A program made the translations under genes and the position numbers. From NCBI GenBank assembly GCA_028288925.1, contig JAQGHG010000010.1, forward strand, positions 8,057 to 72,056: a stretch of 64,000 bases of DNA, given 5' to 3'. Position 1 is the first letter of the stretch; each line of letters opens with the position of its first letter. Shown one piece after another: positions 1,433 to 63,352 of this stretch. The DNA is from Patescibacteria group bacterium. Its GTDB lineage: Bacteria > Patescibacteriota > Saccharimonadia > UBA4664. The notes beneath the pieces were generated by a model that worked only from the letters and a program-made list of their open reading frames with translations, made no database searches and was not told where the DNA came from.

Positions 1433-1828
1433 TTACTCTTCTAGCAATTGCTTTATAGGATCAAAATAATAATCCCGCCAACCGTCCGTCATACTTACAA
1501 GTTCATCGTCGCCGACATTTGTTTGTGTGAGATGAACTATGGTCTTATTGTCACCATCTGCCTGAAGTGAAAAAGTAACGTTATGAAGCCGCCTGGGGTA
1601 GTCGTGTTCGTACCAGTTCTGCTCCAAGCGTTCCTCCGCCTCAATTTTCGTGATTGTGCCATGAATATCACCGCCCCAGTAGCTAAACTCGCCACCGATC
1701 GTCGCATCAACTTTGGCCGAGCCCGCGCCCCATTGCTCGGCCGCACCGGCACTCGTCAATGCCTTCCAAACCGCACTTCGTGGACATTTTATAAGGTAGT
1801 CTTGGTGGATTGTATGCATATACAACAT
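1433..1828 (-). CDS. SRPBCC superfamily protein (Aha1/AHSA1-like)
   Basis: CPRSAVWKALTSAGAAEQW... is a typical SRPBCC/Aha1 N-terminus. Start moved to ATG 1828 because the longer ORF overlaps the tRNA. Gene is conspicuously low-GC. Confidence 0.55.
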   Translation of the reverse strand: MLYMHTIHQDYLIKCPRSAVWKALTSAGAAEQWGAGSAKVDATIGGEFSYWGGDIHGTITKIEAEERLEQNWYEHDYPRRLHNVTFSLQADGDNKTIVHLTQTNVGDDELVSMTDGWRDYYFDPIKQLLEE

Positions 1829-1855
1829 TTTATCAGACAAGATAAGAATAATTCC

Positions 1856-1941
1856 TGGTGCGCGAGAGAGGAGTCGAACCTCCACGTCCTTGCGGACACT
1901 AGTACCTGAAACTAGCGTGTATACCATTTCACCACTCGCGC
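1856..1941 (-). tRNA. tRNA-Leu (anticodon CAG), class II with long variable arm, encoded CCA
   Basis: Reverse complement GCGCGAGTGGTGAAATGGTATACACGCTAGTTTCAGGTACTAGTGTCCGCAAGGACGTGGAGGTTCGACTCCTCTCTCGCGCACCA. 7-bp acceptor stem; anticodon stem CTAGT/ACTAG with loop TTCAGGT; long variable arm; GGTTCGACTCC T-arm. Confidence 0.9.
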
Positions 1942-4410: not shown

Positions 4411-4442
4411 CGTAGGGGCAGAACTTGCGTTCCGCCCCTACG
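4411..4442. other. 9-bp inverted repeat hairpin (CGTAGGGGC...GCCCCTACG) downstream of small membrane gene
   Basis: Perfect reverse-complement arms with a 14-nt loop. Confidence 0.4.
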
Positions 4443-4915: not shown

Positions 4916-7051
4916 TCATGAGGCTGCCTCCGGCGCGATCACGTCCAGATGGCGGCGGAGGAAATCGAGCTGCAGCTTGAGCAGGTTTTCGGCGACTTCC
5001 TCTTGAGGGGTCATATGTGTGACGCCGGAGAGGGGCAAAACCTCGTGCGGCCGGCCGGCCGCGAGCAGGGCGCCCGAGAGCCTCAGGGAGTGCGCCACTA
5101 CTACATTGTCGTCGGCTAGCCCATGAATAATTTGTAGCGGTCGCTCCAGCCGGGCGGCGGCGGTGAGTAATGAGGTTTGGTCGTAGACAGCCGGGTTGGC
5201 CTGGGGATCGCCCAAGTACCGCTCGCTGTAATGGGTGTCATAGAGCCGCCAGTCGCTGACGGGGGCACCGGCTATCGCGGCCGCGAAGATGTCCGGTCGA
5301 AAGATGACTGCGGCGGCGGCCAGGTAGCCTCCAAACGACCAGCCCCGAATGGCGACTTTGCGACTGTCGAGCTGAGGATATTTGGCCAGGACCGTCTGCA
5401 GAGCCTCTACTTGATCCTCGATAGCTGGATTTAGGAGATCGCGATGGATGGCTTTTTCCCAGGCCGGCCCTCGCCCAGGCGCACCGCGGCCGTCCGCCAC
5501 TATCACGGCAAAACCGGCGTTGGCAAACCATTGGGCCGACAGCAAGGCGTGGCTGGCAGCTACAGCATACTGGGCGTGTGGTCCGCCGTAGGGGCTCATG
5601 AGCACCGGCAGCGGAGACGTGCCGTCGTAATGTTCCGGCAGGATTACGGCTGCTTCGAGGTGGCGCTTGGTGCTCGTAAGCCATGCGGGCCGGGGCTGGA
5701 GCGGCGGGACGGCGGCATGCGTAGCGATCTCCCCTATCCGTTTGAGCGCGCCATCCATCCAGAGGTGCACCTGCGGCGCCTCGTAACGGCAGGTGCTCAG
5801 GGTATTCTCATGGATGATCACGGTGGAACCGCCGACGGTGGCGCCGTGAACGCCCTCGCCCCGAGTGAGCTGGGTGGGCTTACCCTCGGGCGCCACCGCC
5901 CAAACCTGCCAAGAGCGAGGGGTCGGGTCCCAGGCCTCGAAGATGAGAGTACCGTCGTCTGTCCGCCCGCTAAACTGGCGCACATTGAGGTGAGGTGGCG
6001 TAACGGCTTTACCGTTTACCGTGAGGTGGCGGACGTCTGTGTCGGCCAGATCCACGATCTGGCCGTCTGGGAATTGGGCCGGCAACCCAGCGTGAATCTC
6101 GATCCAACGGGGATCTTTTTGCTCGGCTTGGAGCTGGGCATCGCCCGAAACAGGGTCTATTAGGTAGTGCTTGATGCGCGTTTGGTCGCGCGACTGAACT
6201 ACTATCAGAGGTGATGCCGAGGCCCATCTGACTGCTACCAGATAGGGATAATCGCGGTGGTCCCAGGTGATCGCGGTCTTATCCCCGCTCGCGGCGTCGA
6301 TGAGGCTCAGCGTGACGCCGGCGTTGGCCGTGCCGGCCGCTGGGTACTTAATGGTGGTGGGAGCCGCCGCCGGGTTGCTGGGATCACTGATAAACCAATC
6401 CGTCACCGGCTGGTTGTCGACCCGGGCGGCGATCAGCCGGGTACTGTCCGGCGACCACCAATAGCCCCGCTGGCGGTCCATCTCTTCGGCCGCTACAAAG
6501 TCCGCCACGCCCCAGGTGACGTGTGGGACGTCGGGTTTGGCTAGCTGTTTAACTTGGGGCTCGGCGGCCGAAACATCCAGACGGCCGAGCGCTCCGCCGG
6601 ATATATATGCTACGTAGTGGCCGTCGGGGCTCAGGCGGGGGTCGTAGGCCGATTCGCCTTTTAAGACGCGGGCCGGTTGCCGGCCGGGTTTTTCCGGCGC
6701 CAGGTACAGGTCGCCATTTAGCGCGAAAACGACCCGCTGCCCATCTTTGGATACGCTGTAGCTAGTGATGCCGGCCGAACGTTCCCGCAGGCGCTCGCGG
6801 CGGCGGCGCTCCTCGGCGGGCAATTCGCCGCTTTCGCCCGCGGCCAATGTGAGCGGATCGGCCACCAGCACCGCTGCGGCCATTTGGTCGTTGGTTATAT
6901 CAATGCGCCAGAGACAATTTACGGTATCTTCGCCGTGCCGTGAGCGCAAAAAGTAAATCCGCCCACCCCCGCCCGTAACGGTGACAGTCCGGGGATGGCC
7001 CAAGGTAAAGTTGCGAGTACGGGCGTTTTGACGGGGGAAAGAATCTGCCAT
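4916..7051 (-). CDS. S9 family serine peptidase, dipeptidyl-peptidase IV-like (beta-propeller + alpha/beta hydrolase)
   Basis: 710 aa; C-terminal GWSFGG nucleophile elbow and HGLADDNV; N-terminal propeller region. Confidence 0.85.
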   Translation of the reverse strand: MADSFPRQNARTRNFTLGHPRTVTVTGGGGRIYFLRSRHGEDTVNCLWRIDITNDQMAAAVLVADPLTLAAGESGELPAEERRRRERLRERSAGITSYSVSKDGQRVVFALNGDLYLAPEKPGRQPARVLKGESAYDPRLSPDGHYVAYISGGALGRLDVSAAEPQVKQLAKPDVPHVTWGVADFVAAEEMDRQRGYWWSPDSTRLIAARVDNQPVTDWFISDPSNPAAAPTTIKYPAAGTANAGVTLSLIDAASGDKTAITWDHRDYPYLVAVRWASASPLIVVQSRDQTRIKHYLIDPVSGDAQLQAEQKDPRWIEIHAGLPAQFPDGQIVDLADTDVRHLTVNGKAVTPPHLNVRQFSGRTDDGTLIFEAWDPTPRSWQVWAVAPEGKPTQLTRGEGVHGATVGGSTVIIHENTLSTCRYEAPQVHLWMDGALKRIGEIATHAAVPPLQPRPAWLTSTKRHLEAAVILPEHYDGTSPLPVLMSPYGGPHAQYAVAASHALLSAQWFANAGFAVIVADGRGAPGRGPAWEKAIHRDLLNPAIEDQVEALQTVLAKYPQLDSRKVAIRGWSFGGYLAAAAVIFRPDIFAAAIAGAPVSDWRLYDTHYSERYLGDPQANPAVYDQTSLLTAAARLERPLQIIHGLADDNVVVAHSLRLSGALLAAGRPHEVLPLSGVTHMTPQEEVAENLLKLQLDFLRRHLDVIAPEAAS

Positions 7052-7522
7052 TTAGCCCTCCTGAACAGCCCGAAGCCGCATTATGTCTTGGGAGTGGCGG
7101 TTTACGAGCCGGTTTTGGCTTTTCATCTCATGTTTGATCTCGACAAGATCTTTTTTCACCTTGCTCATATCCTGTTTGAGCCCGGCGACGTCTTGCTTGA
7201 GTTCGGAAACATCGTGCTTGAGCCCAATGACATCTTGTTTGAGCCCGGCGACGTCGTGTTTAAGCACGGTGACGTCATGTTTAAGTTCAGCGACGTCTTG
7301 TTTAAGTTCGGCGACGTCTTGTTTAACTGCCCCCAACTCTTTTTCTATGCTATCGAACCGTCCATATACGGCCAGGAAGTCTTGCTGGATAGCCGCCATA
7401 TCGTCTTCGTAACGATTCTCAAACACCCGGAACCGAGTATCGACCGATTGATCGACGATCTGCCGGATGTCGGGAAGGATCGCTATTTTGAGCTCATCGA
7501 GAGTAAAATCTACCGTTGCCAT
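7052..7522 (-). CDS. coiled-coil tandem-heptad-repeat protein, paralog family A (N-terminus MATVDFTLDELK)
   Basis: Eight imperfect 7-aa repeats (LKQDVAE-type). Stop TAA directly abuts the peptidase ATG (TAAATG), and a GGAGGG RBS sits inside its 3' end. Confidence 0.7.
   Translation of the reverse strand: MATVDFTLDELKIAILPDIRQIVDQSVDTRFRVFENRYEDDMAAIQQDFLAVYGRFDSIEKELGAVKQDVAELKQDVAELKHDVTVLKHDVAGLKQDVIGLKHDVSELKQDVAGLKQDMSKVKKDLVEIKHEMKSQNRLVNRHSQDIMRLRAVQEG
7176..7331. repeat. ~7.5 imperfect 21-bp tandem repeats inside the CDS
   Basis: ttgagcccggcgacgtcttgc / ttgagttcggaaacatcgtgc / ttaagttcggcgacgtcttgt ... Confidence 0.8.
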
Positions 7523-7573
7523 GACTTGGTTCCTGTTCTCATCCGAGTATACCCTTTAATTTTGTATCTATTG

Positions 7574-7589
7574 TACCGAACAAAAGCCG
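7574..7589 (-). promoter_or_regulatory. conserved promoter-proximal element TACCGAACAAAAGCCG (gene orientation CGGCTTTTGTTCGGTA) upstream of repeat-protein gene
   Basis: Near-identical 16-mer upstream of the paralog at 41038..41053; GTTCGGTA also upstream of uvrA. Confidence 0.45.
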
Positions 7590-7604
7590 TATGTAAAGAC
7601 CCTA

Positions 7605-9131
7605 TTAGCGTTCTTCGGTGGACATGTCGTCGGAAGTAGCCTCGAGGGTCGGCGCGGGCGTTTGACCCAGGTGCTCCTTGATGGCTTGAGCCTTGGCCGG
7701 ACCGATGGCGGCTGAGACCTCTTCGAGCGTGGCGAGCTTGACGCCGCGCACCGAGCCGAAGCGCCGGATGAGGAGTTTGCGGGTAGCCGGGCCGACGCCG
7801 GGGATCTCGTCGAGGAGGCTGTGGGTGGCGCGCTTGCCGCGAAGGATGCTCTGGTACGTGATGGCGAAACGGTGGGCTTCGTCGCGCACACGCTGGAGCA
7901 GCTGGAGGACATGGCTGGAGGCCGGCAGCAGGATGCTCTCGAAGTCTGTGTTGGCGGTGACCCAGGCCTCGTTGTCCCAGTGGCCGGCGACCCCCTCTTG
8001 CTTGAGGTGGCGGCGAATAATTTCTTCTTCGCGCTTGGCTAAGCCGATAGCCGGGACGCTCAGGCCTTGGGCATCGAGTACGCTAAGGGCGGCGGCGAGC
8101 TGGCCTTGGCCGCCGTCGATCAGGAGCAGGTCGGGCTTGGGCCATTCGGCGGCGTTTTTGGGGCTGAAGCGCCGGGTGATGACCTCGCGCATATGGCCGT
8201 AGTCGTCGTTGCCGGTGAGGTTCATCTTGAAGCGTTTGTACTCGTCGCGGTTGGGCACACCGTCGTTAAACACCACCATGCTGGCCACATTGTCGACGCC
8301 GCCGAGATGCGAGATGTCGTAGGCTTCGATCCGGCGCGGAATGCTCTTGAGCTCCAGGCGTTCGGCCAGTCCGGTGAGCGCCTGGTCGCGCGTGAGGTCG
8401 AAGGCTTCTTTGTCGCCAAATACCATTTGTTTGCCAAACGAGCGCAGGTCGGTGAGCTGGTCGCGCAGACGGGCGGCGTGCTCGAAGTCTTTCTTTTTGG
8501 CGGCGCGCTGCATTTCGGTTTCGAGCTGGGTCATAAGCTTGGTTTGCTCGCCCTTGAGGTAGAGCTCGAGCTTGCGGATGCCGCGGCGGTAATCGATGGC
8601 GTCGATGGCGCCTTCTTCGGGACCAGGGCACAATCCAAGGTGGTATTGTAGGCAGCCGCGCTTGGGCCAGTTGGCGTGGGTGATGTAAGGGAAGACTTTG
8701 CGCAGCATACGCATGGCCCGGCGCAGCGAGTCGCTGGAGGTGAAGGGACCGTAGTAATGAGCGCGGTCGTCGAGCGGCCGCCGCACATAACTAACGACCG
8801 GGAAGTCGTCGGCCGAGATTTTGACGTACAGGAAGTTTTTGTCGTCCTTGAGATCGATGTTGTACTTGGGCTTGTAGCGTTTGATGAACTCTGACTCCAG
8901 AAATAGCGCCTCGACCTCGCTACCTACGGTGACCCACTCGGTGTCGGCGATATCGGCTACCAGGAGCCTCGTTTTGGGGTCGCGGTGCTTGTTTTGGAAA
9001 TAGCTCATGACGCGGTTTTTGAGCACGGCGGCTTTGCCGATGTAAATAATTTTACCCTTGGCGTCACGGTGGAAATACACCCCGGGCTCGGCCGGGAGGG
9101 TCTTGAGTTTGTCGCGGAGGTGGTCGGTCAT
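7605..9131 (-). CDS. uvrC: excinuclease ABC subunit C
   Basis: GIY-YIG N-terminus (PAEPGVYFHRDAKGKIIYIGKA), UvrC middle region and C-terminal HhH. Start set at ATG 9131 (MTDHLRDK); the 200-aa upstream extension of the ORF is rejected. Confidence 0.9.
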   Translation of the reverse strand: MTDHLRDKLKTLPAEPGVYFHRDAKGKIIYIGKAAVLKNRVMSYFQNKHRDPKTRLLVADIADTEWVTVGSEVEALFLESEFIKRYKPKYNIDLKDDKNFLYVKISADDFPVVSYVRRPLDDRAHYYGPFTSSDSLRRAMRMLRKVFPYITHANWPKRGCLQYHLGLCPGPEEGAIDAIDYRRGIRKLELYLKGEQTKLMTQLETEMQRAAKKKDFEHAARLRDQLTDLRSFGKQMVFGDKEAFDLTRDQALTGLAERLELKSIPRRIEAYDISHLGGVDNVASMVVFNDGVPNRDEYKRFKMNLTGNDDYGHMREVITRRFSPKNAAEWPKPDLLLIDGGQGQLAAALSVLDAQGLSVPAIGLAKREEEIIRRHLKQEGVAGHWDNEAWVTANTDFESILLPASSHVLQLLQRVRDEAHRFAITYQSILRGKRATHSLLDEIPGVGPATRKLLIRRFGSVRGVKLATLEEVSAAIGPAKAQAIKEHLGQTPAPTLEATSDDMSTEER

Positions 9132-9216
9132 GAGAGTATTATACCTCATACTTCTATTGACATGGATAGCGCTTTGTGTTACTATGTGTTTACTCGAAAG
9201 AGTACCCCCCCTGTTC

Positions 9217-9573: not shown

Positions 9574-9843
9574 TTAAGCGGCCTGGTCGAAGTCTTCTTG
9601 GGTCTCTTTGGCGGTGTTGCTATCGCCGCGGTGGCTGTTCTTGCCACCTTCGCTAGCGACTTTGCGTACCTCATCCTTGTCGCGGTTGGCGAAGTTGCCG
9701 GGGTTGTTTTCCTTACCCTGCTTCTGGCCAATCTCCGAGTAGAACTCCGGACCGCGTTCGTCGCGGACCTTCTCGCCGCCTTTGCGGCCGGCCTCGGCCG
9801 TGGTCATTGTGTCGTCTTTTTGGTCGTCATTCTTGGTTGCCAT
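9574..9843 (-). CDS. KGG-repeat general stress protein (YciG/GsiB/Con-10-like)
   Basis: Short hydrophilic protein with RKGGE / GQKQGKEN / GGKNSHRG repeats; strong AAGGAGGAAG RBS. Confidence 0.7.
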   Translation of the reverse strand: MATKNDDQKDDTMTTAEAGRKGGEKVRDERGPEFYSEIGQKQGKENNPGNFANRDKDEVRKVASEGGKNSHRGDSNTAKETQEDFDQAA

Positions 9844-9986: not shown

Positions 9987-12845
9987 CTATGTGTGAACCG
10001 CTGTTTTGGAAGTCTTTTTGGCAGCCGCTGCCTCGAAGATGCGCTTGAGGTATTTGCCGGTATGACTACCGGTTTCTTTGGCGACTTGCTCGGGTGTGCC
10101 GAGGGCGATGACCATGCCGCCGCCGGAGCCGCCTTCGGGGCCCATGTCGATGAGCCAGTCGGAGCATTTGATGACGTCCAAGTTGTGCTCGATAACGAGC
10201 ACCGTGTTGCCGGTATCGACCAGCGCGTTGAGCACTCCCAGCAGGCGGTTGACGTCCTCGAAGTGGAGGCCGGTGGTGGGCTCGTCGAGGATATAGAGGG
10301 TGCGGCCGGTGCTGCGGCGGGCGAGCTCGGCGGCGAGCTTGATACGCTGGGCCTCACCACCGGAAAAGGTAGTAGCGGACTGGCCGAGGTGGATGTAGCC
10401 TAGGCCGACTTTGTTGAGGGTGTCGAATTTGCGGCGGATGGCCGGATGGTTCTCGAAGAAGGTGACGGCTTCTTCGACGGTCATATCGAGCACGTCGGAG
10501 ATGTTTTTGCCTTTGTAGTGGATCTCGAGCGCTTCCCGATTGTAGCGCTTGCCTTTGCACTCTTCGCAGGTCACGTACACATCGGGCAGGAAGTGCATCT
10601 CGATCTTGATGATGCCGTCGCCACGGCAGAGCTCGCAGCGGCCGCCTTTGACATTGAAGCTGAACCGGCCGGCTTTGTAGCCACGTATTTTGGCCTCGGG
10701 GGTCTGGGCGAACAGCTCGCGGATGTCGGCGAAGACGCCGGTGTAGGTGGCGGGGTTGGAGCGCGGGGTGCGGCCGATGGGCGATTGATCGACGCTAATG
10801 ACCTTGTCGAGATTTTTGAGGCCTTGGATCTCATCGTGCTTGCCGGGGAGGTCGCCGGCACGGTGGTAAACTTGGGCGAGTTTCTTGGCCAGGATGTCGT
10901 TGACGAGGCTGGATTTGCCCGAGCCGGACACGCCGGTCACGCTCACCAGCATGCCGAGCGGGATGGTGACGTCGACATTCTGGAGGTTGTGCTCGCGGGC
11001 GTTTTTGATGATGAGCTGCTTGTGGTTGCCTGGGCGGCGCTTGGTGGGCGTCATGATGGCCTTGGTGCCGGAGAGGTATTGGCCGGTGAGGCTGCCGGGG
11101 GTAGCGGCTACCTCTTCGGGGGTGCCGGCCGCCACGATCTCGCCGCCGTGCTCGCCCGCCGCGGGGCCCACATCGATGACGTAGTCGGCCATACGGATGG
11201 TATCTTCATCGTGCTCGACGACGATGACGGTGTTACCAAGCTCGCGCAACCGTATGAGTGTGGCGATGAGGCGGTCGTTGTCGCGCTGGTGGAGGCCGAT
11301 GCTTGGCTCATCGAGGATGTAGAGCACGCCCATCAGGCTAGAGCCGATCTGGGTGGCCAGCCGGATGCGCTGAGCCTCGCCGCCAGCTAGCGTGTTGGCA
11401 CTGCGGTCGAGCGTGAGGTAGTTGAGGCCGACGTCGCGTAGGAAGGTCAGGCGGGCGCATATCTCTTTGAGAATTTGGACGGCGATTTGAGCTTCGCGCG
11501 GCCCTAATTCCAGTGTTTCGAACAGCTTGGCCGCCTCGCCGATAGAAAGCATGGTGAGGTCAACGATGGATTTGCCACCCACCGTCACGGCCAGGATTTC
11601 GGGCTTGAGGCGCTTGCCGTGGCAAACGGGGCATTCGCGCTCGGCCATGTATTTTTCGATCTCTTTGCGCACGAATTCCGAATCGGTCTCATGGTAGCGC
11701 CGCTCCATATTGGGGATCACACCTTCGTAGACGGTGTGATAGGTGCGGCCGCCGGGGCCGCGCATGGTGATCTCGGCGTCACCGGAGCCATACAGGATGA
11801 CACGCAGGTCGGCCGGCTTCATGTCCTGGACCGGCGTGTCGAGCGAGAAGTCGTAGGTCTTGGCGACGCCCTCGAGCAGCTTGGTGTACCAGCTGAGGCG
11901 GCTAGTGGTCTTGGCCCACGGCCGGATGGCGCCTTCGGCCAGGGTGAGACGGCGGTTGGGTATGACGACTTCGGGATCGACCTCGAGCTTGGTGCCGAGC
12001 CCGGTGCAGTGCGGGCAGGCGCCGTGGGGCGAGTTGAACGAGAAGTTGCGCGGCGCGATCTCGGGCAGCGAGATTTCGCGGTGTACCGGGCAGGCATAGT
12101 GCTCGGAGTGAATGTGCTCGGTGCCGTCTTCTGCTTGGAGCACTTTGATGATGCCGTCGCTGAGGTTGAGGCCGTGCTCCACGCTCTCGGTGAGGCGCTG
12201 GCGAATTTCGGCGTCGACGGCCACGCGGTCGACCACGGCTTCGACGGTATGCTTCTTTTGTTTGTCGAGAGCCGGGAACTCATCAATATCCATAACGGCG
12301 CCGTCGACGCGCAGCCGCGTGTAGCCGGCCTTCTTGAGCTCGGCCACTACCTGGCGATGCTCGCCTTTTTTGTCGTCTATGACCGGCGCGATTAGCATAA
12401 CCCGCGTACCGGCCGGGAGTTCGAGGATTTGGTCGACGATCTGGCCGGGCGTCTGGCGGGTGACTTCGTTGCCGCAAATAGGACAATGCGGTATACCCAC
12501 GCGGGCATAGAGCAAACGCAGGTAATCATAAATTTCGGTGACGGTACCGACGGTAGAGCGAGGGTTGCGCGAGGAGCTCTTCTGGTCGATGGAGATGGCC
12601 GGACTTAAGCCGTCAATCTGGTCGACGTCGGGCTTCTCCATAAGGCCAAGGAATTGCCGCGCGTAGGCCGAAAGCGATTCGACATAGCGGCGCTGACCTT
12701 CGGCATAGATGGTATCGAAGGCAAGCGACGATTTGCCCGAGCCGGAAAGGCCGGTAATAACGACGAGTTTATCGCGCGGTATCTCGACGTCGATATTTTT
12801 GAGGTTGTGTTCCCGGGCGCCCCGGACAACGATCTTATCTGTCAT
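9987..12845 (-). CDS. uvrA: excinuclease ABC subunit A
   Basis: Two ABC ATPase modules ([12 protein letters not shown]... and [10 protein letters not shown]), zinc-finger CxxC pairs; ~953 aa. Start set at ATG 12845 ([17 protein letters not shown]). Confidence 0.95.
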
Positions 12846-12963
12846 ATACCTCCCCACCCCGGGCAAAATGGCCCGGACATTACGAACAGGAATTGTACAC
12901 ATATTTAGTGCATTTTGCAATGGTAGGCTGTGACGAAACGACCGGCCTACCTTCGCCATTATG

Positions 12964-12980
12964 CCGAACGTTTACCGAAC
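12964..12980 (-). promoter_or_regulatory. direct repeat GTTCGG-N5-GTTCGG (gene orientation) about 120 nt upstream of uvrA
   Basis: CCGAACgtttaCCGAAC on the + strand with 11-bp periodicity; shares GTTCGGTA with the repeat-protein promoters. Confidence 0.35.
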
Positions 12981-13084
12981 ATACAAGTATTGTCATATTT
13001 GCAATTTTAGTTTATAGTTACAGTGCTTTCACGAGATCCTCTCGAGAAGTAGCCCCTACTACCCTCCCGAAGGGAGGTTGTCTT

Positions 13085-16451: not shown

Positions 16452-18455
<2,004 letters not shown>

Positions 18456-18497
18456 ATCTTGCCGATTATACCATTGTCTGAATCTCAAAGCCTCTGG

Positions 18498-18566
18498 CGA
18501 GGTCCGACCTTGAGCGAACGACTGTAACTAAGCTTAGCCCGGTGGCTCGCTCAAGGTCGGACCTCG
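18498..18566. promoter_or_regulatory. long perfect hairpin (20-bp stem CGAGGTCCGACCTTGAGCGA / TCGCTCAAGGTCGGACCTCG) with 29-nt loop containing palindrome CTAAGCTTAG
   Basis: Lies between divergent uvrB and the GT2 gene, probably in the uvrB 5' region. Confidence 0.6.
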
Positions 18567-39548: not shown

Positions 39549-40532
39549 TTATTTGCGCTTGATGAGCTCTTGGGCCTTGGCGGTGATATGCGGCGCGGTG
39601 AGGCCGAAGTGCTCCATGAGCTCGGCCGGGGTGCCGGATTCGCCGAAGTGGTCGAGCAGACCGATGCGGCTCATGGGGACGGGGTGATGGTCGGCCAGGG
39701 TCTCGGCCACGGCGCCACCGAGGCCGCCGGCGACCTGGGCTTCTTCGGCCGTCAGGACGGCGCCGGTCTTCTTGGCGCTGGCTACGATGGTGATAGTGTC
39801 GAGCGGCTTGACGACGGCCGCGTTGATGACCTCGGCTTCGATGCCTTGCTTGGACAGCGCTTCGGCGGCCACGAGCGCCTGGTACACCAGCGCGCCGCAC
39901 GCCACGATGGTGAGATCTGTGCCGGCGCGCAGCACTTGGGCCTTGGAGAGCGAGAATGGTGACTTGTCGGTGGTAATAACGGGTGATTTTTCGCGAGCCA
40001 AGCGCAGGTAGGCCGGGCCTTTGTGGCTAGCTAGCACTATGGTGGCTTTAGCCGCCTCGACGGCGTCGGCCGGCACTACCACCGTCATGTTGGGCAGCAC
40101 GCGCATGAGCGCGATGTCTTCGAGCATCTGGTGGGTGGCGCCGTCGGGCCCCACCGAGACGCCGGCGTGCGAGCCGACGATCTTGACGTTGGTCTGGTTG
40201 AGGCAGATGGTAGTGCGGATTTGTTCCCAGTTGCGGCCGGGCGAGAAAGCAGCGTAGCTAGAGACGAACGGCGTCTTCCCGGCCAGGGCCATGCCGGCGG
40301 CGACGGTCACGAGGTTTTGCTCGGCGATGCCGACTTCTACGAAGCGCTCGGGGTAGCTCTTGGCGAAATCATCCATCTTGGTGCTGATGGTGAGGTCGGC
40401 GCAGAGGGCCACAATGTCTTTGTCCTTGTGGGCGGCTTCAAGCAAACCGCGACCGAAGCCCATGCGGTTGGCTTCTTGTTTGACTTCCGGGCTGAGAAGA
40501 TCCGGGGCGAGATGTTGTTGCGGGTCGATCAT
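39549..40532 (-). CDS. transketolase, C-terminal subunit (pyrimidine-binding + C-terminal domains)
   Basis: Split-transketolase C half (FGRGLLEAAHKD..., EDIALMRVLPNM...). Confidence 0.9.
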   Translation of the reverse strand: MIDPQQHLAPDLLSPEVKQEANRMGFGRGLLEAAHKDKDIVALCADLTISTKMDDFAKSYPERFVEVGIAEQNLVTVAAGMALAGKTPFVSSYAAFSPGRNWEQIRTTICLNQTNVKIVGSHAGVSVGPDGATHQMLEDIALMRVLPNMTVVVPADAVEAAKATIVLASHKGPAYLRLAREKSPVITTDKSPFSLSKAQVLRAGTDLTIVACGALVYQALVAAEALSKQGIEAEVINAAVVKPLDTITIVASAKKTGAVLTAEEAQVAGGLGGAVAETLADHHPVPMSRIGLLDHFGESGTPAELMEHFGLTAPHITAKAQELIKRK

Positions 40533-40572
40533 GATCTTATGATACGGTTCTCGGGCCGAAAAGACAAAATAG

Positions 40573-40986
40573 TTATGCTCTGTCGCTAGCAGAGGAGGCT
40601 GTGCGGGTACGAAGAACCTGCTTGATGTGGCGCAAATCGGTCCGGACTATGGCGCTGTCCCCCTCTAGGCGGTCGAGACGGTCTTCGATGTGATCAAAAT
40701 GATCATCCACCGCCTGCATAGCAGGATTAAAGTTCTCGTCTATAAAACTCTGGAATTGCTCTAGCACCTGATTGGTGCTTTCTTGGATCATGTGTCTCGT
40801 ATGACCGCGCTCTACTTGAAACATCTGCTCGGTGTGTTGGCGCTCAGCACGGAGCAGTTGCCCGGTGTGTTGGCGTTCTAATTGGAGCATTTGTGCGGTG
40901 TGCTCACGTTCCGCAATGAAACGTTCATCGAGGCCCTCATCAATCACTTTTTTGATATCTTCGAGCGTGAAATCGACCGTCGGCAT
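40573..40986 (-). CDS. coiled-coil tandem-repeat protein, paralog family A (N-terminus MPTVDFTLEDIKK)
   Basis: Shares its N-terminus with 7052..7522; three 11-aa repeats (ERQHTGQLLRA/ERQHTEQMFQV/ERGHTRHMIQE); inserted between the two transketolase genes. Confidence 0.65.
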   Translation of the reverse strand: MPTVDFTLEDIKKVIDEGLDERFIAEREHTAQMLQLERQHTGQLLRAERQHTEQMFQVERGHTRHMIQESTNQVLEQFQSFIDENFNPAMQAVDDHFDHIEDRLDRLEGDSAIVRTDLRHIKQVLRTRTASSASDRA

Positions 40987-41037
40987 AGAGGACCCCCTTA
41001 TTCATTCCCAGTATATTGCTCACCTTCGCACTTATAC

Positions 41038-41053
41038 TACCGAACAAAAACCG
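41038..41053 (-). promoter_or_regulatory. conserved promoter-proximal element TACCGAACAAAAACCG (gene orientation CGGTTTTTGTTCGGTA)
   Basis: 15 of 16 nt identical to 7574..7589, at a similar distance from the start codon. Confidence 0.45.
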
Positions 41054-41090
41054 ATACTACAATCTTTTTTATGAAGCCGAGGCCGGGGCT

Positions 41091-41954
41091 TTATTCGTGC
41101 TCGGAGCGGATTTGGCCGCCGAGGGTGCGGAGCTCGTGCAGGGCGATGCGGGCTTGATCGGCGGCGGGCGGCGCGCCGGGCACATTGGCAAAGTAGCCGT
41201 GCCAGTGGTAATCGTATTGCATGTAATCGACGCCTTTGCCGGGGATGGTGTGGGCGATGATGACGGTGGGACGCTCGACAATGGCCTTGGCCAGATTGCA
41301 GGCGCTAATGATGGCGTCCATGTTGTGGCCGTCGATCTCGATGACGTGCCAGCCGAAGGCGGCGAACTTTTGCGCCACGTCGCCCAGGGGCATGACGCGC
41401 TCGGTGGGGCCGTCGATCTGGATGTTGTTGCGGTCGACGATTACTGTGAGGTTAGTGAGCTTCTTGGCGGCAGCGAACATGGCGCCTTCCCAGATATTGC
41501 CTTCGTCGAGCTCGCCGTCGCCGGTGATGCAATAGACGCGGCCGCGAGAGCCGTCCATACGCAAAGCCAGGGCCATGCCGGCGGCCTGGCTGAGGCCCGA
41601 GCCGAGCGGGCCGGAGGTGGTTTCGAGGCCGGGCAGGCGCACCCGCTCGGGATGGCCCTGGAGGCGCGAGCCAAATTTGCGCAAGGTTTTGAGCTCGCTC
41701 ACCGGAAAGTAGCCGGCGCGGGCCATGGTGGCGTAGCGCACAGGCACGGTGTGGCCGTTTGAGAGCACCAGGCGGTCACGGCCGGGCCACTCCGGCTGCT
41801 TGGGCCGGTGCTCCATGACCTCGAAGTAGAGGGCGGTAAAGATATCGGCTAGGCCAAGCGGACCGGCGCTGTGACCGCTCCCCGCTTCCACCAGCATCTT
41901 GATGATGTCTTCGCGGATTTCGTTGGCTTGGAGTTCTAATTGCTTGTGCGTCAT
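41091..41954 (-). CDS. transketolase, N-terminal subunit (thiamine-diphosphate-binding)
   Basis: SGHSAGPLGLADIF, GDGELDEG motifs. Start set at ATG 41954 (MTHKQLELQ); the upstream Ser/Pro-rich extension is rejected. Confidence 0.9.
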   Translation of the reverse strand: MTHKQLELQANEIREDIIKMLVEAGSGHSAGPLGLADIFTALYFEVMEHRPKQPEWPGRDRLVLSNGHTVPVRYATMARAGYFPVSELKTLRKFGSRLQGHPERVRLPGLETTSGPLGSGLSQAAGMALALRMDGSRGRVYCITGDGELDEGNIWEGAMFAAAKKLTNLTVIVDRNNIQIDGPTERVMPLGDVAQKFAAFGWHVIEIDGHNMDAIISACNLAKAIVERPTVIIAHTIPGKGVDYMQYDYHWHGYFANVPGAPPAADQARIALHELRTLGGQIRSEHE

Positions 41955-42003
41955 ACCATAAGCATAATCATAAATTACGATTTTGGCGATGGGGTTCGCG
42001 GGG

Positions 42004-42663
42004 TTAGCTCGTACCTTCGGCGATGGCCTGGACGGCGATGTAGGCGATTTCGGGATCCTCGGCGTCGTGGATGAAGCTGCCGACATCTAGCAGGTTGGCG
42101 CCGGCTTCGATGGCTTGGCGGGCGGTCACTTGGTTGAGGCCGCCGTCGACGGCTATCTCGAGGTCGGGACTGATGGCGCGGGCCTGGGCGATCTTCTCCA
42201 GGCAGTCGGCGCGGAATTCGCCGCCGTTGTGGCCGAGCTTGCCGGTAAAGACCACTAAATGATCGATGGTGGGCAGGATGTCGCGGACTTGCTCGATGGT
42301 AGTCTCGACATTCACCGCCAAACCGACCTTGATGTCGACAGACCGGAGTTCCTTGGCAAAGGCTTGATGGTCGAACGGCGCCTCGAAGTGAGTGATGACG
42401 AGTTCGGGCTGCAGCGCGCAGATATCTTCGAAGTGGCCTTCGGGATGGTTCATCATGAGGTGGAGATCGAACGGCACGCCGTCGATGTCGTAGATTTGGC
42501 TGAGGCCGACGGTTTTGACGTCGGTGAAGACGCCGTCGCCCACATCGATGTGCAGGCGCGTCGCGAAGGGTTTGACGTTGTTGATGCGGCGGGCGTAGTC
42601 CTCGGGCGTGGTGGCGTTGATGGTGGGTGCGACACTAGCCATAGAGCTGCTCGATTTGATCAA
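42004..42663 (-). CDS. rpe: ribulose-phosphate 3-epimerase
   Basis: ATRLHIDVGDGVF...DLHLMMNHPE...VDGGLN; true start may be the internal ATG 42642. Confidence 0.8.
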   Translation of the reverse strand: MIKSSSSMASVAPTINATTPEDYARRINNVKPFATRLHIDVGDGVFTDVKTVGLSQIYDIDGVPFDLHLMMNHPEGHFEDICALQPELVITHFEAPFDHQAFAKELRSVDIKVGLAVNVETTIEQVRDILPTIDHLVVFTGKLGHNGGEFRADCLEKIAQARAISPDLEIAVDGGLNQVTARQAIEAGANLLDVGSFIHDAEDPEIAYIAVQAIAEGTS

Positions 42664-54755: not shown

Positions 54756-55141
54756 CCAGTATTTGACGACCGACCGAGGCCGATGTACATTTAAACGACA
54801 AATAGGCTATGCCCCGCCCCCCCCGTTTCTTTGTAAGAGCGGGGGGAGAACTTTTTAAGCGGCTCTCACGATATCTGCTATTTCTTGTCTTATTTTTGTA
54901 ATATCTTCATCGCCCACCCACCCATCGTGATTAATGAGCCGGCGCGCATCAAAGGCTCGGATCTGTGAGACCAATGCGGTTTTGTAGGATACAGACTGTT
55001 GAAAACGGGGCGGGTGAAGTCTGGGCCCTTGCCGTCCTCCTCGAACCCGACATTACACCCAACAGCTGCCCACCAAACCTCTTGCTCGTAATAGTGAGGG
55101 ATGGTTAACCGAACATAATGCGAACGTGCAAGCTTAAGGGG

Positions 55142-61679: not shown

Positions 61680-62681
61680 TTAGTGAGGGATCGGTAGCTC
61701 AATGATAAACGTCGCGCCAGGACGGATGTTCTCGGCAGAAATGGACCAGCCGTGCGCTTCGGTGATTTCTTTGGCTATGGCAAGCCCTAAACCGAGGCCA
61801 CCGGTAGCGCGGGAGCGGGATTCGTCCACTCTGTAGAAGCGTTCGAAGAGGTCGGGGAGGCTTTCTTCCGGGATGCCTCGGCCGTTGTCTTGGACAGATA
61901 GCATACTGCCGTCGTAGGTGAGGGTGATTTGGGTGCCTTGGGAGTATCGGATGGCATTACTTATGAGATTGCCGAGCAGGCGTTCGAGGAGTTTGGGGTC
62001 GGCCTGGAGGGGTTGGGAGGTGAGATTGAGGTCGAGGGTGAGGTTGGCGGTTTTGAGCTCGTCGGCGTAGTGGCGGCTTAGGCGGCGGGCGAGTTTGGCG
62101 AGGTCGACGGGCTCGAGGTGGGGGCGGATGGCCGAGGAGCGGATGGAGGCGTAGTCGCCCAGGCCTTGGACGAGGTCACTGAGGCGTTCGGCTTGTTCGT
62201 AGAGGAGTTGGACGCGGTCTTGGTCCATTCTGAGGACGCCGTCTTTGACGCCTTTGAGCTGGGCGTAGAGGGCCGTGACGGGGGTGTTGAGCTCGTGGGA
62301 GGTGTCGGAGATGAGGTCGCGGCGGAGTTTTTCTTCGTGGGCCAGGCGGGTGCCAAGCTCGTTGACTTCGGCGATGACGGCGTCGAATTCCTGGACGTCG
62401 CTGGATCCCAGCTTGGCCTGGTAGTTGTTTTGGCGCAGGGAGGCGATGACTGCGGCGAGGTTGCGCAGGGGCTCGGACACCAGGCGGGCGGCCAGGATGC
62501 CGAGAATGAGCGGGATGAGGATAGCCAGGGTGGGCAGCTCCAGGAAGACGAGCGGGAAGTGGGTGCGGCCGGAGCGGACGTAGAAGGCGGTGATGATGAG
62601 GGCGCCGATGAACAGCGTGGGGCCGACCACCACGATGAGCAGCGCGATGCGGACGGAGAGGCGGCGGAAGAGGCGCTTCAC
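61680..62681 (-). CDS. intramembrane-sensing sensor histidine kinase (BceS/LiaS-like: two TM with very short loop, HisKA + HATPase_c)
   Basis: SHELNTP H-box, GLGLGLAIAKEI G-box; ATGA overlap with the RR gene. Confidence 0.85.
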   Translation of the reverse strand: MKRLFRRLSVRIALLIVVVGPTLFIGALIITAFYVRSGRTHFPLVFLELPTLAILIPLILGILAARLVSEPLRNLAAVIASLRQNNYQAKLGSSDVQEFDAVIAEVNELGTRLAHEEKLRRDLISDTSHELNTPVTALYAQLKGVKDGVLRMDQDRVQLLYEQAERLSDLVQGLGDYASIRSSAIRPHLEPVDLAKLARRLSRHYADELKTANLTLDLNLTSQPLQADPKLLERLLGNLISNAIRYSQGTQITLTYDGSMLSVQDNGRGIPEESLPDLFERFYRVDESRSRATGGLGLGLAIAKEITEAHGWSISAENIRPGATFIIELPIPH

Positions 62682-63352
62682 TCCCCTACCTCGCGGAACC
62701 GGTAGCCACGGCCGATGACGGTCTGGATGTAGACGGGGTGGGCCGGATCGGGCTCGAGGGCCTTGCGGATGGCTTTGATGTGGGCGTCGATGGTGCGGTC
62801 GAAGACGGCGTGGCCGGCGGGGTCGTCGTAGGACTGGTCCAGGAGCTGGTCGCGGGTGAGGACCTGGCCGGGCTGCTTGGCCAGCGCCAGCAGAATGTTG
62901 AACTGGGTGGTAGTGAGGGCGATGGCGCGATTGTTTTGGGTGACGCGCATGGCGGCGGGCTCAATGGCGATATCTTTGAACTCGAGGCGGGCGGGCGCGT
63001 GACGGCGGAGCAGGGCCTGGGCGCGGGCCACGAGGATGGGCGGTTTGAAGGGCTTTTTGATGTAATCGTCGGCGCCGAGGTCTAGGCCCAGCAGCTCATC
63101 GGTGTCCTCGGCGCGGGCGGTGAGCATGATGATGGGCACCAGGGAATCGGCGCGGATACGGCGACAGACTTCGAGGCCGGAGAGGCCCGGGAGGTTGAGG
63201 TCGAGGACAATTAAGTCGAATTTCGACTGCTCGAATAATTCGAGGGCGGCCGGGCCGGTGGCGGCTTCGGCCACGTCGTAACCCGCACGTTTGAGGTAGG
63301 CGGCTTCGACCTCGCGGATAGGGGCTTCGTCTTCGACGATGAGGATCTTCAT
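62678..63352 (-). CDS. OmpR/PhoB-family response regulator
   Basis: MKILIVEDE...D receiver; C-terminal winged helix (GYRFRE). Confidence 0.9.
   Translation of the reverse strand: MKILIVEDEAPIREVEAAYLKRAGYDVAEAATGPAALELFEQSKFDLIVLDLNLPGLSGLEVCRRIRADSLVPIIMLTARAEDTDELLGLDLGADDYIKKPFKPPILVARAQALLRRHAPARLEFKDIAIEPAAMRVTQNNRAIALTTTQFNILLALAKQPGQVLTRDQLLDQSYDDPAGHAVFDRTIDAHIKAIRKALEPDPAHPVYIQTVIGRGYRFREVGE

What the first reader, a model, noticed from the sequence alone, without database searches (positions are those of the whole stretch)
7052..7604. Paralogous family of coiled-coil tandem-repeat proteins sharing an N-terminus and a promoter element; copy 1 is coupled to an S9 peptidase
The proteins at 7052..7522 and 40573..40986 share the N-terminus M-[AP]-TVDFTL-[DE]-[ED]-[LI]-K but differ in internal repeat units. 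Copy 1 has eight 7-aa (21-bp) repeats; copy 2 has three 11-aa repeats. Both genes are preceded by an almost identical 16-mer (CGGCTTTTGTTCGGTA / CGGTTTTTGTTCGGTA in gene orientation) just upstream of a -10-like TA-rich hexamer, which implies co-regulation. Copy 1 ends TAA directly on the ATG of the DPP-IV-like peptidase, with the peptidase RBS inside its coding sequence, implying translational coupling. The repeat DNA (7176..7331) is a plausible substrate for repeat-number variation. I do not recognise the family.
Basis: seen in the sequence. Interest (0 to 1): 0.6.

Follow-up and report, generated by a model that had tools for sequence, protein, structure and literature searches.

The report
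Saccharimonadia helix-protein family with conserved promoter
The two small genes are real paralogues of an unannotated protein family found only in Saccharimonadia (candidate-phyla-radiation bacteria): each protein is one long helix whose length changes through in-frame tandem repeats, nearly every copy examined has the same unusually conserved promoter, and the genes often sit beside DNA-repair genes, while the link to the S9 peptidase is local to this genome.

Summary
Both ORFs (7052..7522 and 40573..40986, minus strand) are real genes. Profile-profile comparison shows they are full-length homologues (99.5%, E=9e-23). About 90 clusters of 70-160 aa proteins belong to the family; every source that names an organism says Saccharimonadia or Patescibacteria. 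No Pfam, NCBIfam, PHROG or PDB family matches.

Members share M-[PA]-T-V-D-F-T-L-E-D at the N-terminus and HS-x-DI-x-x-LRA at the C-terminus. Between these lie lineage-specific tandem repeats of 4, 7, 8 or 11 aa. AlphaFold predicts one unbroken helix for both window proteins.

A metagenome contig identical in its flanks lacks exactly five heptads, so repeat number does vary.

The 16-mer is the spacer of a near-consensus sigma-70 promoter: TTGcat, then (G/A)TTCGG-N5-GTTCGG, then TAtAAT, then 16-18 nt, then TATACT. It is present at 20 of 21 distinct loci, although the proteins are only 25-50% identical. I read it as an operator.

The S9 link is not general: the syntenic locus in another genome has an M24 Xaa-Pro aminopeptidase. 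Recurrent positions are Ku-X-LigD, uvrC-X-peptidase, X-uvrA and tktN-X-tktC. The window's uvrA keeps a family-type promoter with no family gene.

Best reading: a co-regulated, probably DNA-damage- or dormancy-responsive, coiled-coil adaptor. Its function is inferred, not shown.

The parts
7052..7522 (-). Copy 1 CDS, 156 aa. It consists of the N-terminal peg MATVDFT, one long helix and the C-terminal motif RHSQDIMRLRA. It belongs to the SIDxRFxVFExxYxxDMxAIQxDF subfamily.
7173..7324 (-). 21-bp (heptad) tandem array encoding DVxxLK[QH]. Five units are deleted in allele L001.
7570..7597 (-).
7546..7551 (-). Near-invariant TATACT box, 18 nt after the -10 hexamer and 23 nt before the ATG. Role unknown: it could be a second -10 or a leader element.
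7049..7062 (-). Junction with the peptidase gene: SD AGGAGG inside copy 1, stop TAA, then the peptidase ATG directly after.
4916..7051 (-). S9 / DPP-IV-like peptidase (DPPIV_N + Peptidase_S9). It is a downstream neighbour and not a conserved partner of the family.
40573..40986 (-). Copy 2 CDS, 137 aa, lying between the split transketolase genes tktN (41091..42086) and tktC (39549..40532). This position is conserved in other Saccharimonadia.
40826..40902 (-). 33-bp (11-aa) tandem repeats encoding xER[EQG]HTxxMxx. There are four units at protein level.
41010..41062 (-). Copy 2 promoter: -35 TTGTAG (41062..41057), 17-nt spacer TATCGGTTTTTGTTCGG, -10 TAGTAT (41039..41034) and TATACT (41015..41010).
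12958..12986 (-). Family-type promoter with no family gene, about 110 nt upstream of the uvrA start codon: TTGTAT-GTTCGGTAAACGTTCGG-CATAAT, a perfect GTTCGG-N5-GTTCGG repeat. Two relatives carry a family gene at this position.
9987..12845 (-). uvrA. I place the start at ATG 12845 by alignment with its orthologues.
7605..9131 (-). uvrC, immediately upstream of copy 1. It looks leaderless: TATAAT lies 7 nt before the ATG.

Best explanation
The two genes are paralogues of a previously unannotated family of small cytoplasmic proteins. Every source that names an organism says Saccharimonadia or Patescibacteria.

Anatomy (shown or predicted). Each protein has a 7-residue non-helical N-terminal peg (M-[PA]-T-V-D-F-T). 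This is followed by one continuous alpha-helix with a/d-type hydrophobic periodicity, which should form a coiled coil. The helix ends in a conserved HS-x-DI-x-x-LRA motif. The proteins are acidic, hydrophilic and almost free of cysteine. Helix length is set by lineage-specific in-frame tandem repeats. These expand and contract by recombination or slippage between units, and the reading frame and heptad register are kept.

Promoter (shown). All but one of the members examined carry a dedicated near-consensus sigma-70 promoter. Its spacer is a conserved direct repeat, (G/A)TTCGG-N5-GTTCGG, with an 11-bp period. A near-invariant TATACT box follows, then an unstructured leader with a strong Shine-Dalgarno sequence.

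Regulation (inferred). I read the direct repeat as the operator of a trans-acting regulator. This is most simply a repressor that occludes RNA polymerase. A tandem-binding winged-helix protein such as an OmpR-type response regulator is one plausible binder. All paralogues in a genome would then switch together.

Position (shown) and consequence (inferred). The promoter-plus-gene unit always lies directly upstream of another gene on the same strand: LigD, UvrA, a proline-specific peptidase, TktC or ParA. No terminator was detected after either window gene. It probably adds regulated read-through transcription to that neighbour.

Function (inferred). Three independent position classes touch DNA-repair genes. 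The most likely signal is therefore DNA damage, or dormancy or desiccation. The most likely role is a homo-oligomeric coiled-coil adaptor or spacer: the conserved ends contact partners and the variable helix sets the distance between them.

The abutment to the S9 peptidase is a feature of this genome, not of the family.
For: Homology and family:
- hhalign of the copy-1 subfamily against the copy-2 subfamily gives 99.5%, E=8.7e-23, over 87 columns.
- The profile search of 1.84 billion representatives returns 114 hits, about 90 of them small full-length proteins.
- The conserved termini are visible in the sequences.

Fold and composition:
- AlphaFold2 predicts a single helix for both: residues 8-155 with pLDDT 86.8, and residues 8-136 with pLDDT 94.9.
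- Median pI is 5.1, GRAVY is -0.45, and there is 1 Cys in 60 proteins.

Repeat plasticity:
- L001 is identical to the window apart from a 105-bp in-frame deletion. The junction shares only 11 bp, too short for a k-mer assembly to collapse.
- Other members carry 4-, 7-, 8- and 11-aa repeat arrays.

Promoter:
- 20 of 21 distinct loci have the element with fixed geometry. The gap from the -10 hexamer to TATACT is 16-18 nt in most, and TATACT to the ATG is 17-24 nt.
- Held-out loci L025, L027, L028 and L011 score 14-30 bits, against a shuffle maximum of 13.3.
- In about 249 kb of fetched sequence, the only clear non-family hit is the uvrA promoter of the window: 19.4 bits, against 7.4 or less in 5 shuffles.
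- The consensus scanner independently calls the copy 1 promoter, with 10 of 12 matches.
- The leaders fold less stably than shuffled versions, z = +0.9 to +2.7.

Context:
- Ku-X-LigD in 3 genomes.
- uvrC-X-peptidase in 2 genomes.
- X-uvrA in 2 genomes, plus the gene-less promoter in the window.
- tktN-X-tktC in 5 genomes.
- No terminator-like site follows either window gene on its strand.
- An OmpR-type response regulator and a histidine kinase are encoded in the window at 61680..63352.
Against: - No regulator has been tied to the element. Repression, activation, and even the true transcription start (TATAAT-driven or TATACT-driven) are all unresolved.
- The uvrA-upstream element is not conserved upstream of uvrA in L025. 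No recA or lexA promoter was available to test. A wider regulon beyond the family is therefore unproven.
- Many members sit next to genes unrelated to DNA repair: tkt, parAB, a ZIP transporter, a polyprenyl synthase, response regulators and pilin-like genes.
- tktC and LigD appear to have their own -10 boxes placed for leaderless transcripts, so read-through may matter little.
- One member (P0123, L019) lacks the element entirely.
- AlphaFold on a monomer cannot show oligomeric state.
- There are no expression data.
Confidence: 0.55

Rival explanations
1. The conserved spacer and the TATACT box are not an operator. They are intrinsic parts of an exceptionally strong constitutive promoter and leader. 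The family is then simply an abundant structural or cytoskeletal coiled-coil protein, and its position beside repair genes is an accident of synteny.
For: The -35 and -10 hexamers are near consensus. The leaders are unstructured and carry a strong SD. The element is almost confined to the family. The uvrA element is not conserved in L025.
Against: Sigma-70 spacers are not normally sequence-constrained. Here an 11-bp-periodic direct repeat is kept while the proteins diverge to 25-50% identity. DNA-repair neighbours recur in three independent position classes.
Confidence: 0.22
2. The promoter plus ORF is a mobile or duplicative cassette that inserts between adjacent genes. The promoter is conserved because copying was recent. 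The gene-less promoter at uvrA is a decayed insertion.
For: The unit lies between functionally paired genes (Ku/LigD, tktN/tktC) that are usually adjacent. There are several copies per genome. A family-type promoter without a gene sits upstream of uvrA, where relatives have a gene. One member lies next to an rve transposase.
Against: There are no terminal inverted or direct repeats at the cassette edges. The same insertion positions are shared by genomes whose copies are only 30-50% identical, so the positions are old and inherited.
Confidence: 0.1
3. One reading: copy 1 is functionally and translationally coupled to the proline-specific peptidase. It could be a substrate, because the N-terminus M-P or M-A fits X-Pro/X-Ala exopeptidase specificity, or it could be a regulator.
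For: The TAA-ATG abutment has an SD inside the gene. At the syntenic locus in another genome the S9 DPP-IV is replaced by an M24 Xaa-Pro aminopeptidase that starts 2 nt after the small gene's stop codon. Position 2 of the family is nearly always Pro or Ala.
Against: Both peptidase-linked copies begin with MA, not MP. Pro or Ala at position 2 is common wherever the initiator Met is removed (general knowledge). Most members are not next to any peptidase. The same tight abutment is seen with LigD. The peptidases sit beside an oligopeptide-binding SBP_bac_5 gene, which points to peptide catabolism.
Confidence: 0.08
4. A phase- or antigen-variable surface protein (contingency locus), in which repeat changes alter an exposed coiled coil.
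For: There is repeat-number polymorphism within a population.
Against: The proteins have no signal peptide, membrane segment or anchor, as the sequences show directly. The repeats are imperfect (77% matches) and in frame, so they change length and do not switch expression on or off.
Confidence: 0.03

Closest known systems
Direct-repeat operators of OmpR/PhoB-family response regulators (pho boxes, Streptomyces PhoP 11-nt direct repeat units)
   Same: There are two tandem units with an 11-bp period lying within the promoter. An OmpR-type regulator is encoded in the window. The unit starts with GTTC, as I recall for Streptomyces PhoP units; this is from memory and is not a test.
   Different: The repeat fills the -35/-10 spacer and abuts the -10 hexamer, which suggests occlusion rather than class II activation. 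No binding data exist. The unit sequence GTTCGG is not a described box.
Mycobacterial RecA-NDp / PafBC promoters and LexA SOS boxes (DNA-damage regulons)
   Same: A non-palindromic element lies just upstream of the -10 hexamer of genes clustered with uvrA, uvrC, Ku and LigD. PafBC regulons include uvrA and uvrC (PMC8223512). The recalled RecA-NDp consensus, tTGTCRgtg-N8-TAnnnT, loosely resembles tATCGGtt-N9-TAtAAT; this is from memory only.
   Different: No PafBC/WYL or LexA gene was found in the sequence available here. No GAAC-N4-GTTC palindrome lies at these promoters. The spacing differs by 1 nt. The main regulated product here is a coiled-coil protein, not a repair enzyme.
Small SOS- or stress-induced modulators (DinI, SulA/YneA/SidA-type division inhibitors) and the coiled-coil NHEJ scaffolds XRCC4/XLF
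   Same: These are small, poorly conserved, lineage-specific proteins placed in repair loci. XRCC4 and XLF are coiled-coil homodimers that act with Ku and the ligase.
   Different: There is no sequence or fold relationship. This family has no head domain and is only a peg plus a helix. Induction and partners are untested.
Generic prokaryotic DV[AST]xLK[TQ] heptad-array proteins
   Same: The heptads of copy 1 match 657 proteins from many phyla. Those proteins also vary by whole heptads; for example P0004 has 223 aa and P0044 has 216 aa.
   Different: Apart from P0001, the copy-1 allele itself, none of the 27 top-ranked hits I inspected shares the N-terminal peg, the central motif or the C-terminal motif. 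The resemblance is in the repeat only, and other family members use quite different repeats.
LEA proteins / hydrophilins with 11-mer repeats
   Same: They are hydrophilic and charged, contain 11-residue repeats (copy 2 type), and are found in soil organisms near stress genes. A KGG-repeat stress protein lies between uvrA and uvrC.
   Different: The family is predicted to be a stable helix with a hydrophobic seam. Gly is only 3-4% and GRAVY is -0.45 to -0.84, so the hydrophilin criteria are not met. There is no LEA Pfam hit.

Membership tests
Named coiled-coil Pfam/NCBIfam families (EzrA, LPP, DivIC, ZapB, YabA, SMC and others) | Score at or above the curated gathering cut-off | tested here: not met
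   Every hit is below its cut-off. For example EzrA scores 27.7 against 39.6, and LPP 26.3 against 29.1. Copy 2 and other members get no hits.
Sigma-70-type promoter | TTGACA-like and TATAAT-like hexamers 16-18 nt apart, upstream of the gene | tested here: met
   Copy 1 has TTTACA-16-TACAAT, 10 of 12 matches. The same geometry is present at 20 loci. The transcription start has not been mapped.
LexA (SOS) regulon, Gram-positive-type box | Palindromic GAAC-N4-GTTC box in the promoter | tested here: not met
   There is one such box in the whole window, at 4421, which is not at these genes and is the number expected by chance. The element here is a direct repeat, not a palindrome.
LexA (SOS) regulon | Presence of LexA, and the same motif at lexA and recA | not testable with these tools
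   No recA or lexA gene is present in the window or in the fetched loci.
OmpR/PhoB-type direct-repeat operator | Two or more tandem units with a 10-11 bp period | tested here: met
   (G/A)TTCGG-N5-GTTCGG, with perfect repeats at uvrA, L028 and L021.
OmpR/PhoB-type direct-repeat operator | Binding by a response regulator | not testable with these tools
   A candidate regulator is encoded at 62678..63352. There is no binding assay.
Hydrophilin / LEA | Gly above 6% with high hydrophilicity; LEA Pfam match | tested here: not met
   Gly is 2.9-3.8% and GRAVY is -0.45 to -0.84. There is no LEA family among the hits.
Contingency (phase-variable) locus | Repeat changes that shift the frame or the promoter spacing and so switch expression | tested here: not met
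   The units are 21 and 33 bp long and imperfect. The observed change is 105 bp and in frame.
Rfam cis-regulatory RNA (riboswitch or leader) | Covariance-model hit or a stable conserved fold in the leader | tested here: not met
   The only Rfam hit in the window is a tRNA. The leaders fold less stably than shuffles.
The new family itself (operational definition) | N-terminal M-[PA]-x-V-D-F-T-L-[ED]-D, a single long helix, a C-terminal HS-x-DI-x-x-LRA (or its RH[IV]KQ variant), and the TTCGG-repeat promoter | tested here: met
   Both window genes meet all four criteria; copy 2 has the RHIKQ variant at its C-terminus.

The most novel reading that the evidence does not exclude
Saccharimonadia have a previously undescribed stress regulon, triggered by DNA damage or dormancy, that is governed by a new direct-repeat operator (GTTCGG-N5-GTTCGG in the promoter spacer). 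Its main output is a family of variable-length single-helix proteins that act directly in DNA repair. One example would be a coiled-coil scaffold between Ku and LigD, a functional analogue of XRCC4/XLF. Another would be a sliding-clamp or UvrA adaptor that docks through the N-terminal TVDFTL peg; its V-x-F-x-L pattern resembles clamp-binding hexapeptides, a resemblance recalled from memory only. In either case repeat number would tune the reach of the adaptor.
Probability: 0.15. Interest if true: 0.8.

Novelty: new variant of a known kind. Interest (0 to 1): 0.55.

Why it matters
Almost nothing is known about gene regulation in candidate-phyla-radiation bacteria, because few are cultured and many of their small proteins are unannotated. 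This finding offers a sharply defined cis-element that is conserved across genera and testable by EMSA or DAP-seq. It is tied to a defined protein family and to the NER and NHEJ loci, which gives a concrete handle on a stress response in Saccharimonadia. The family is also a clean natural example of helix length being changed by in-frame repeat gain and loss while both ends are held constant. If the proteins do work with Ku/LigD or UvrA, they would be the first accessory factor of bacterial NHEJ or NER of this type. In practical terms, the gene is easy to mis-annotate: a longer ORF lies on the opposite strand, and the exact protein is absent from the public protein collection.

Tried and rejected
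- Heptad-driven homology search. It gave 657 hits, but apart from the copy-1 allele P0001 none of the 27 top-ranked hits inspected has the conserved termini. I rejected them as family members.
- Pfam, NCBIfam, PHROGs and PDB sequence searches. They returned only sub-threshold coiled-coil noise.
- Fold search. I did not run it, because both models are single helices and any match would be meaningless.
- Rfam scan and RNA folding of the leaders. There is no RNA element; the leaders are unusually unstructured.
- LexA box search. Nothing was found at these genes.
- Search for terminal repeats around the cassettes. None were found, which argues against a transposon-like unit.
- Scan of viral contigs for the operator. 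It gave 13 chance matches, mostly one phage lineage with the motif in unrelated sequence, and no family gene downstream.
- Co-occurrence with S9 peptidases. Rejected, because the syntenic locus has an M24 enzyme and other loci have no peptidase.
- Conservation of the uvrA-upstream element in another genome. It is not conserved, so a wider regulon is unproven.
- A third promoter-like site at 55103..55131. It has the right -35 and repeat geometry but a poor -10 hexamer (TTAACC), and it lies upstream of what looks by eye like a truncated PemK-like ORF. Left unresolved.
- The Ku promoter in L018. It has a TGTTTGGTA box at its -10 hexamer, but the upstream repeat is out of register. Not counted.
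- The Patescibacteria SOS paper (PMID 28618189). It is not held in the library. The RecA-NDp consensus is not printed in the two papers I could read, so the comparisons with LexA and PafBC motifs rest on memory.
Full report

Both ORFs are present on the minus strand at the stated coordinates: 7052..7522 (156 aa) and 40573..40986 (137 aa). Their N-termini, MATVDFTLDE and MPTVDFTLED, align with E=3e-5 in a pairwise BLASTP.

Tandem Repeats Finder reports a 21-bp array of 7.2 copies at 7173..7324. A 63-bp super-period scores higher still. It also reports a 33-bp array of 2.3 copies at 40826..40902. At protein level copy 1 has seven regular DVxxLK[QH] heptads flanked by about three degenerate ones. 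Copy 2 has four xER[EQG]HTxxMxx hendecads.

The 16-mer CGGYTTTTGTTCGGTA occurs exactly twice in the window, once upstream of each gene.

The stop codon of copy 1 (TAA, 7054..7052) directly abuts the ATG of a DPPIV_N + Peptidase_S9 protein, and AGGAGG lies at 7062..7057.

**2. Organism and family**

Copy 2 is identical to NCBI MDB5178514.1 from a 'Patescibacteria group bacterium' MAG. Its closest relatives are labelled Candidatus Saccharimonadia.

A search with copy 1 alone was dominated by its heptads. It gave 657 hits in many phyla. Apart from one allele of copy 1 itself (P0001), the 27 top-ranked hits I inspected share only the DV[AST]xLK[TQ] repeat.

A search with copy 2 found a small set of 93-137 aa proteins starting MPTVDFTLED. 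Some of them end in ..HS[KR]DI[MI]ELRA, which is the C-terminus of copy 1, RHSQDIMRLRA.

A profile search over 1.84 billion representative proteins gave 114 hits. About 90 of them are 70-160 aa proteins matched from residue 1.

The conserved features are:
- M-[PA]-[TN]-V-D-F-T-L-E-D at the N-terminus. F6 is invariant, and M1, D5, T7, L8 and D10 are at least 90% conserved.
- One or more ERE[HY]T units.
- A central F-x-S-F-W-D-x-N-L-x-P motif, or a SIDxRFxVFExxYxxDMxAIQxDF motif in the copy-1 subfamily.
- C-terminal HS-x-DI-x-x-LRA. Copy 2 and its closest relatives have an RH[IV]KQ variant there instead.

To avoid circularity I aligned the copy-1-like and copy-2-like subfamilies separately and compared the two profiles. 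The result was probability 99.5%, E=8.7e-23, over 87 columns spanning both termini. The two window genes are true paralogues.

No Pfam, NCBIfam, PHROG or PDB family reaches significance. Of the 55 members listed with precomputed Pfam hits, 53 have none and two have only a weak coiled-coil DUF.

**3. What the protein looks like**

AlphaFold2 predicts both window proteins as seven non-helical residues followed by one unbroken helix. The helix spans residues 8-155 (mean pLDDT 86.8) in copy 1 and residues 8-136 (mean pLDDT 94.9) in copy 2.

The heptads place V and L at a/d-type positions, which is what a coiled coil needs. This is read directly from the sequence.

The family is acidic (median pI 5.1) and hydrophilic (GRAVY -0.45). 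About 34% of residues are charged, and it is almost free of cysteine. No signal peptide or membrane segment is visible in the sequences.

Between the conserved ends, members carry different tandem repeats. Examples are DVxxLKQ (7 aa), AEREHTKGLFV (11 aa), KPAFDAAF and DDVRKVVV (8 aa), RFDRMDE (7 aa) and EVRK (4 aa). Helix length is thus the most variable property of the family.

**4. Repeat number varies**

JGI contig L001 (1,138 bp) is identical to the window at every aligned base. It spans the 3' end of uvrC, the promoter, copy 1 and the start of the peptidase. The only difference is that it lacks exactly 105 bp, which is five heptads.

The junction shares only CAAGACGTCGC (11 bp) between repeat units. 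That is too short for a k-mer assembler to collapse, so the deletion is most likely a real allele. It probably arose by unequal recombination or slippage. The change keeps the reading frame and the heptad register.

**5. The promoter element**

Upstream regions of family genes from different genomes align strikingly well. Across 21 distinct loci, 20 carry the following arrangement:
- TTGcat.
- A 16-17-nt spacer, tATCGGtTTTTGTTCGG.
- TAtAAT.
- 16-18 nt (15 nt in one locus that has a variant box).
- TATACT.
- 17-24 nt containing GGGG.
- ATG.

Variants such as GTTCGGCTTGCGTTCGG (L028), ATTCGGTATTAGTTCGG (L027) and TTCGGTATTTGTTCGG (L021) show what the spacer is. It is a direct repeat of (G/A)TTCGG with an 11-bp period, and the second unit abuts the -10 hexamer.

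Loci that were not used to build the PWM still score 14-30 bits, against a maximum of 13.3 in shuffled sequence. The proteins these promoters drive are only 25-50% identical, so the spacer is under its own selection.

One member, P0123 in L019, has an ordinary TTGACC-N19-TATCAT promoter with no such element.

The leaders have no Rfam match and fold less stably than shuffled versions. This fits efficient translation rather than an RNA switch. Neighbouring genes (uvrC, tktC, LigD) look leaderless, with a -10 box about 7 nt before the ATG.

I interpret the repeat as an operator. An 11-bp-periodic direct repeat is the usual target of tandem-binding winged-helix regulators. Its position between the -35 and -10 hexamers suggests occlusion of RNA polymerase. 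The window encodes an OmpR-type response regulator with its histidine kinase at 61680..63352, but nothing ties it to the element. The role of TATACT is unresolved. It lies exactly one promoter-spacer length after the TATAAT box.

**6. Genomic context**

The S9 peptidase link does not generalise. In GCA_038245115.1 the syntenic block is uvrA..uvrC-X-peptidase-holin-SecG-SBP_bac_5. There the peptidase is an AMP_N + Peptidase_M24 Xaa-Pro aminopeptidase, and it starts 2 nt after X. Both enzymes are proline-specific N-terminal exopeptidases, and both lie near an oligopeptide-binding protein gene. The simplest reading is a non-orthologous replacement within a peptide-catabolism cluster.

Recurrent positions of X are:
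- Between Ku and LigD, in three genomes. These are all copy-1-like proteins, and X abuts LigD.
- Between uvrC and a peptidase, in two genomes.
- Directly upstream of uvrA, in two genomes.
- Between the two halves of the split transketolase, in five genomes.
- Downstream of a CheY-like response regulator, in two genomes.
- Singletons next to parAB, a ZIP transporter, a polyprenyl synthase, and pilin-like or Laminin_G genes.

In the window, uvrA has no X gene in front of it. It does have a perfect family-type promoter at 12958..12986: TTGTAT-GTTCGGTAAACGTTCGG-CATAAT. This lies about 60 nt upstream of the uvrA leader region that is conserved in the X-uvrA genomes. It was the only clear non-family PWM hit in about 249 kb. 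I read it as a retained promoter after loss of the gene. It is not present upstream of uvrA in L025.

Three of roughly nine position classes touch NER or NHEJ genes. If repair genes are only a few per cent of a genome of about 1 Mb, this is far more than chance predicts (my rough estimate, not computed with a tool). The classes are few, however, and each is inherited as a unit.

**7. Mechanism, and what is shown versus inferred**

Shown: paralogy, family boundaries, the single-helix prediction, repeat plasticity, promoter conservation and geometry, and the recurrent contexts.

Inferred:
- The direct repeat is bound by a regulator and co-regulates all paralogues.
- The cassette adds regulated read-through into the downstream gene. 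No terminator-like site follows either window gene.
- The trigger is DNA damage or dormancy.
- The protein is a homo-oligomeric coiled-coil adaptor whose ends bind partners.

I give the whole package 0.55, with most of the uncertainty in the last two points.

The rivals are a constitutive strong promoter (0.22), a duplicative cassette (0.10), a functional link to the peptidase (0.08) and a variable surface protein (0.03).

**8. Comparison with known systems**

The operator architecture works like OmpR/PhoB direct-repeat boxes. Its placement just before the -10 hexamer of repair-linked genes recalls the actinobacterial RecA-NDp/PafBC promoters, whose regulon includes uvrA and uvrC (PMC8223512, PMC6789036). 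The motif comparison rests on my memory of the consensus.

The Gram-positive LexA palindrome is absent.

The protein is not a hydrophilin or LEA protein by composition, and it is not a member of any named coiled-coil family.

Its placement between Ku and LigD invites an analogy with XRCC4/XLF, but there is no head domain and no evidence of interaction.

**9. Verdict**

The finding is a genuine, previously unannotated Saccharimonadia family with a genuinely conserved and unusual promoter-operator. It shows real repeat-length polymorphism, and its link to DNA-repair loci is suggestive but unproven.

Novelty: a new variant of a known kind, namely a regulated small coiled-coil protein with a direct-repeat operator. 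Interest: 0.55.

Noticed in passing
window 12958..12986 (-): A perfect family-type promoter (TTGTAT-GTTCGGTAAACGTTCGG-CATAAT) lies upstream of uvrA with no family ORF behind it. In L007 and L009 a family gene occupies this position. It looks like a promoter retained after the gene was lost.
   Followed up: partly
window 4916..7051 (-) versus L025 8285..9571: At the same syntenic position (uvrC-X-peptidase-holin-SecG-SBP_bac_5) one genome has an S9 DPP-IV-like peptidase and another has an M24 (AMP_N) Xaa-Pro aminopeptidase. This is a non-homologous swap between two proline-specific N-terminal exopeptidases.
   Followed up: partly
window 55103..55131 (-): A third site has the family geometry (TTGCAC-GTTCGCATTATGTTCGG-TTAACC) but a poor -10 hexamer. 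It lies upstream of a short region that by eye resembles a truncated PemK/MazF-type toxin (..WWAAVGCNVGFEEDGKGPDFTRPVF..).
   Followed up: no
window 6995..7639 (+): A 214-aa ORF on the opposite strand spans the whole of copy 1 and is longer than the real gene. Neither this ORF nor the exact 156-aa copy 1 protein is in the public protein collection, although the neighbouring peptidase and copy 2 are. The gene may be missing or called differently in the deposited annotation.
   Followed up: partly
window 9574..9843 (-): A KGG-repeat stress protein (PF10685) is encoded between uvrA and uvrC, so stress and repair genes are interleaved in this block (uvrB at 16452..18488, uvrA, KGG, uvrC, copy 1).
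   Followed up: no
window 18498..18566: A 25-nt-arm inverted repeat (92% complementary, 19-nt loop) lies just upstream of the uvrB -10 box. It could be an operator or a hairpin.
   Followed up: no
window 12860..12900 (-); L007, L009, L025 uvrA leaders: The uvrA proximal region GTGTACAATT..(C/G)(T/C)TCGTAATG is conserved in four genomes. The TTCGTAAT piece just after the -10 hexamer resembles the TTCGGTA unit of the family operator.
   Followed up: no
window 9129..9150, 40530..40570; L016, L018 LigD starts: uvrC, tktC and LigD have a -10-like hexamer about 6-8 nt before the ATG and no Shine-Dalgarno sequence, so they look leaderless. The family genes instead have a leader of about 45 nt with GGGG.
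   Followed up: no
proteins P0002-P0120: DV[AST]xLK[TQ] heptad arrays occur in hundreds of otherwise unrelated small proteins from many phyla. Near-identical proteins differ by whole heptads, for example 223 aa against 216 aa.
   Followed up: no
window 1859..1941 (-): A tRNA gene overlaps the 5' end of the listed ORF 1433..1927. The true start of that AHSA1-domain gene is probably further downstream.
   Followed up: no
L005 1765..6481: One family member sits inside a cluster of paralogous secreted proteins that all end in ..TY[IV]CT[AG][ST]F. These may be pilin- or surface-type proteins.
   Followed up: no
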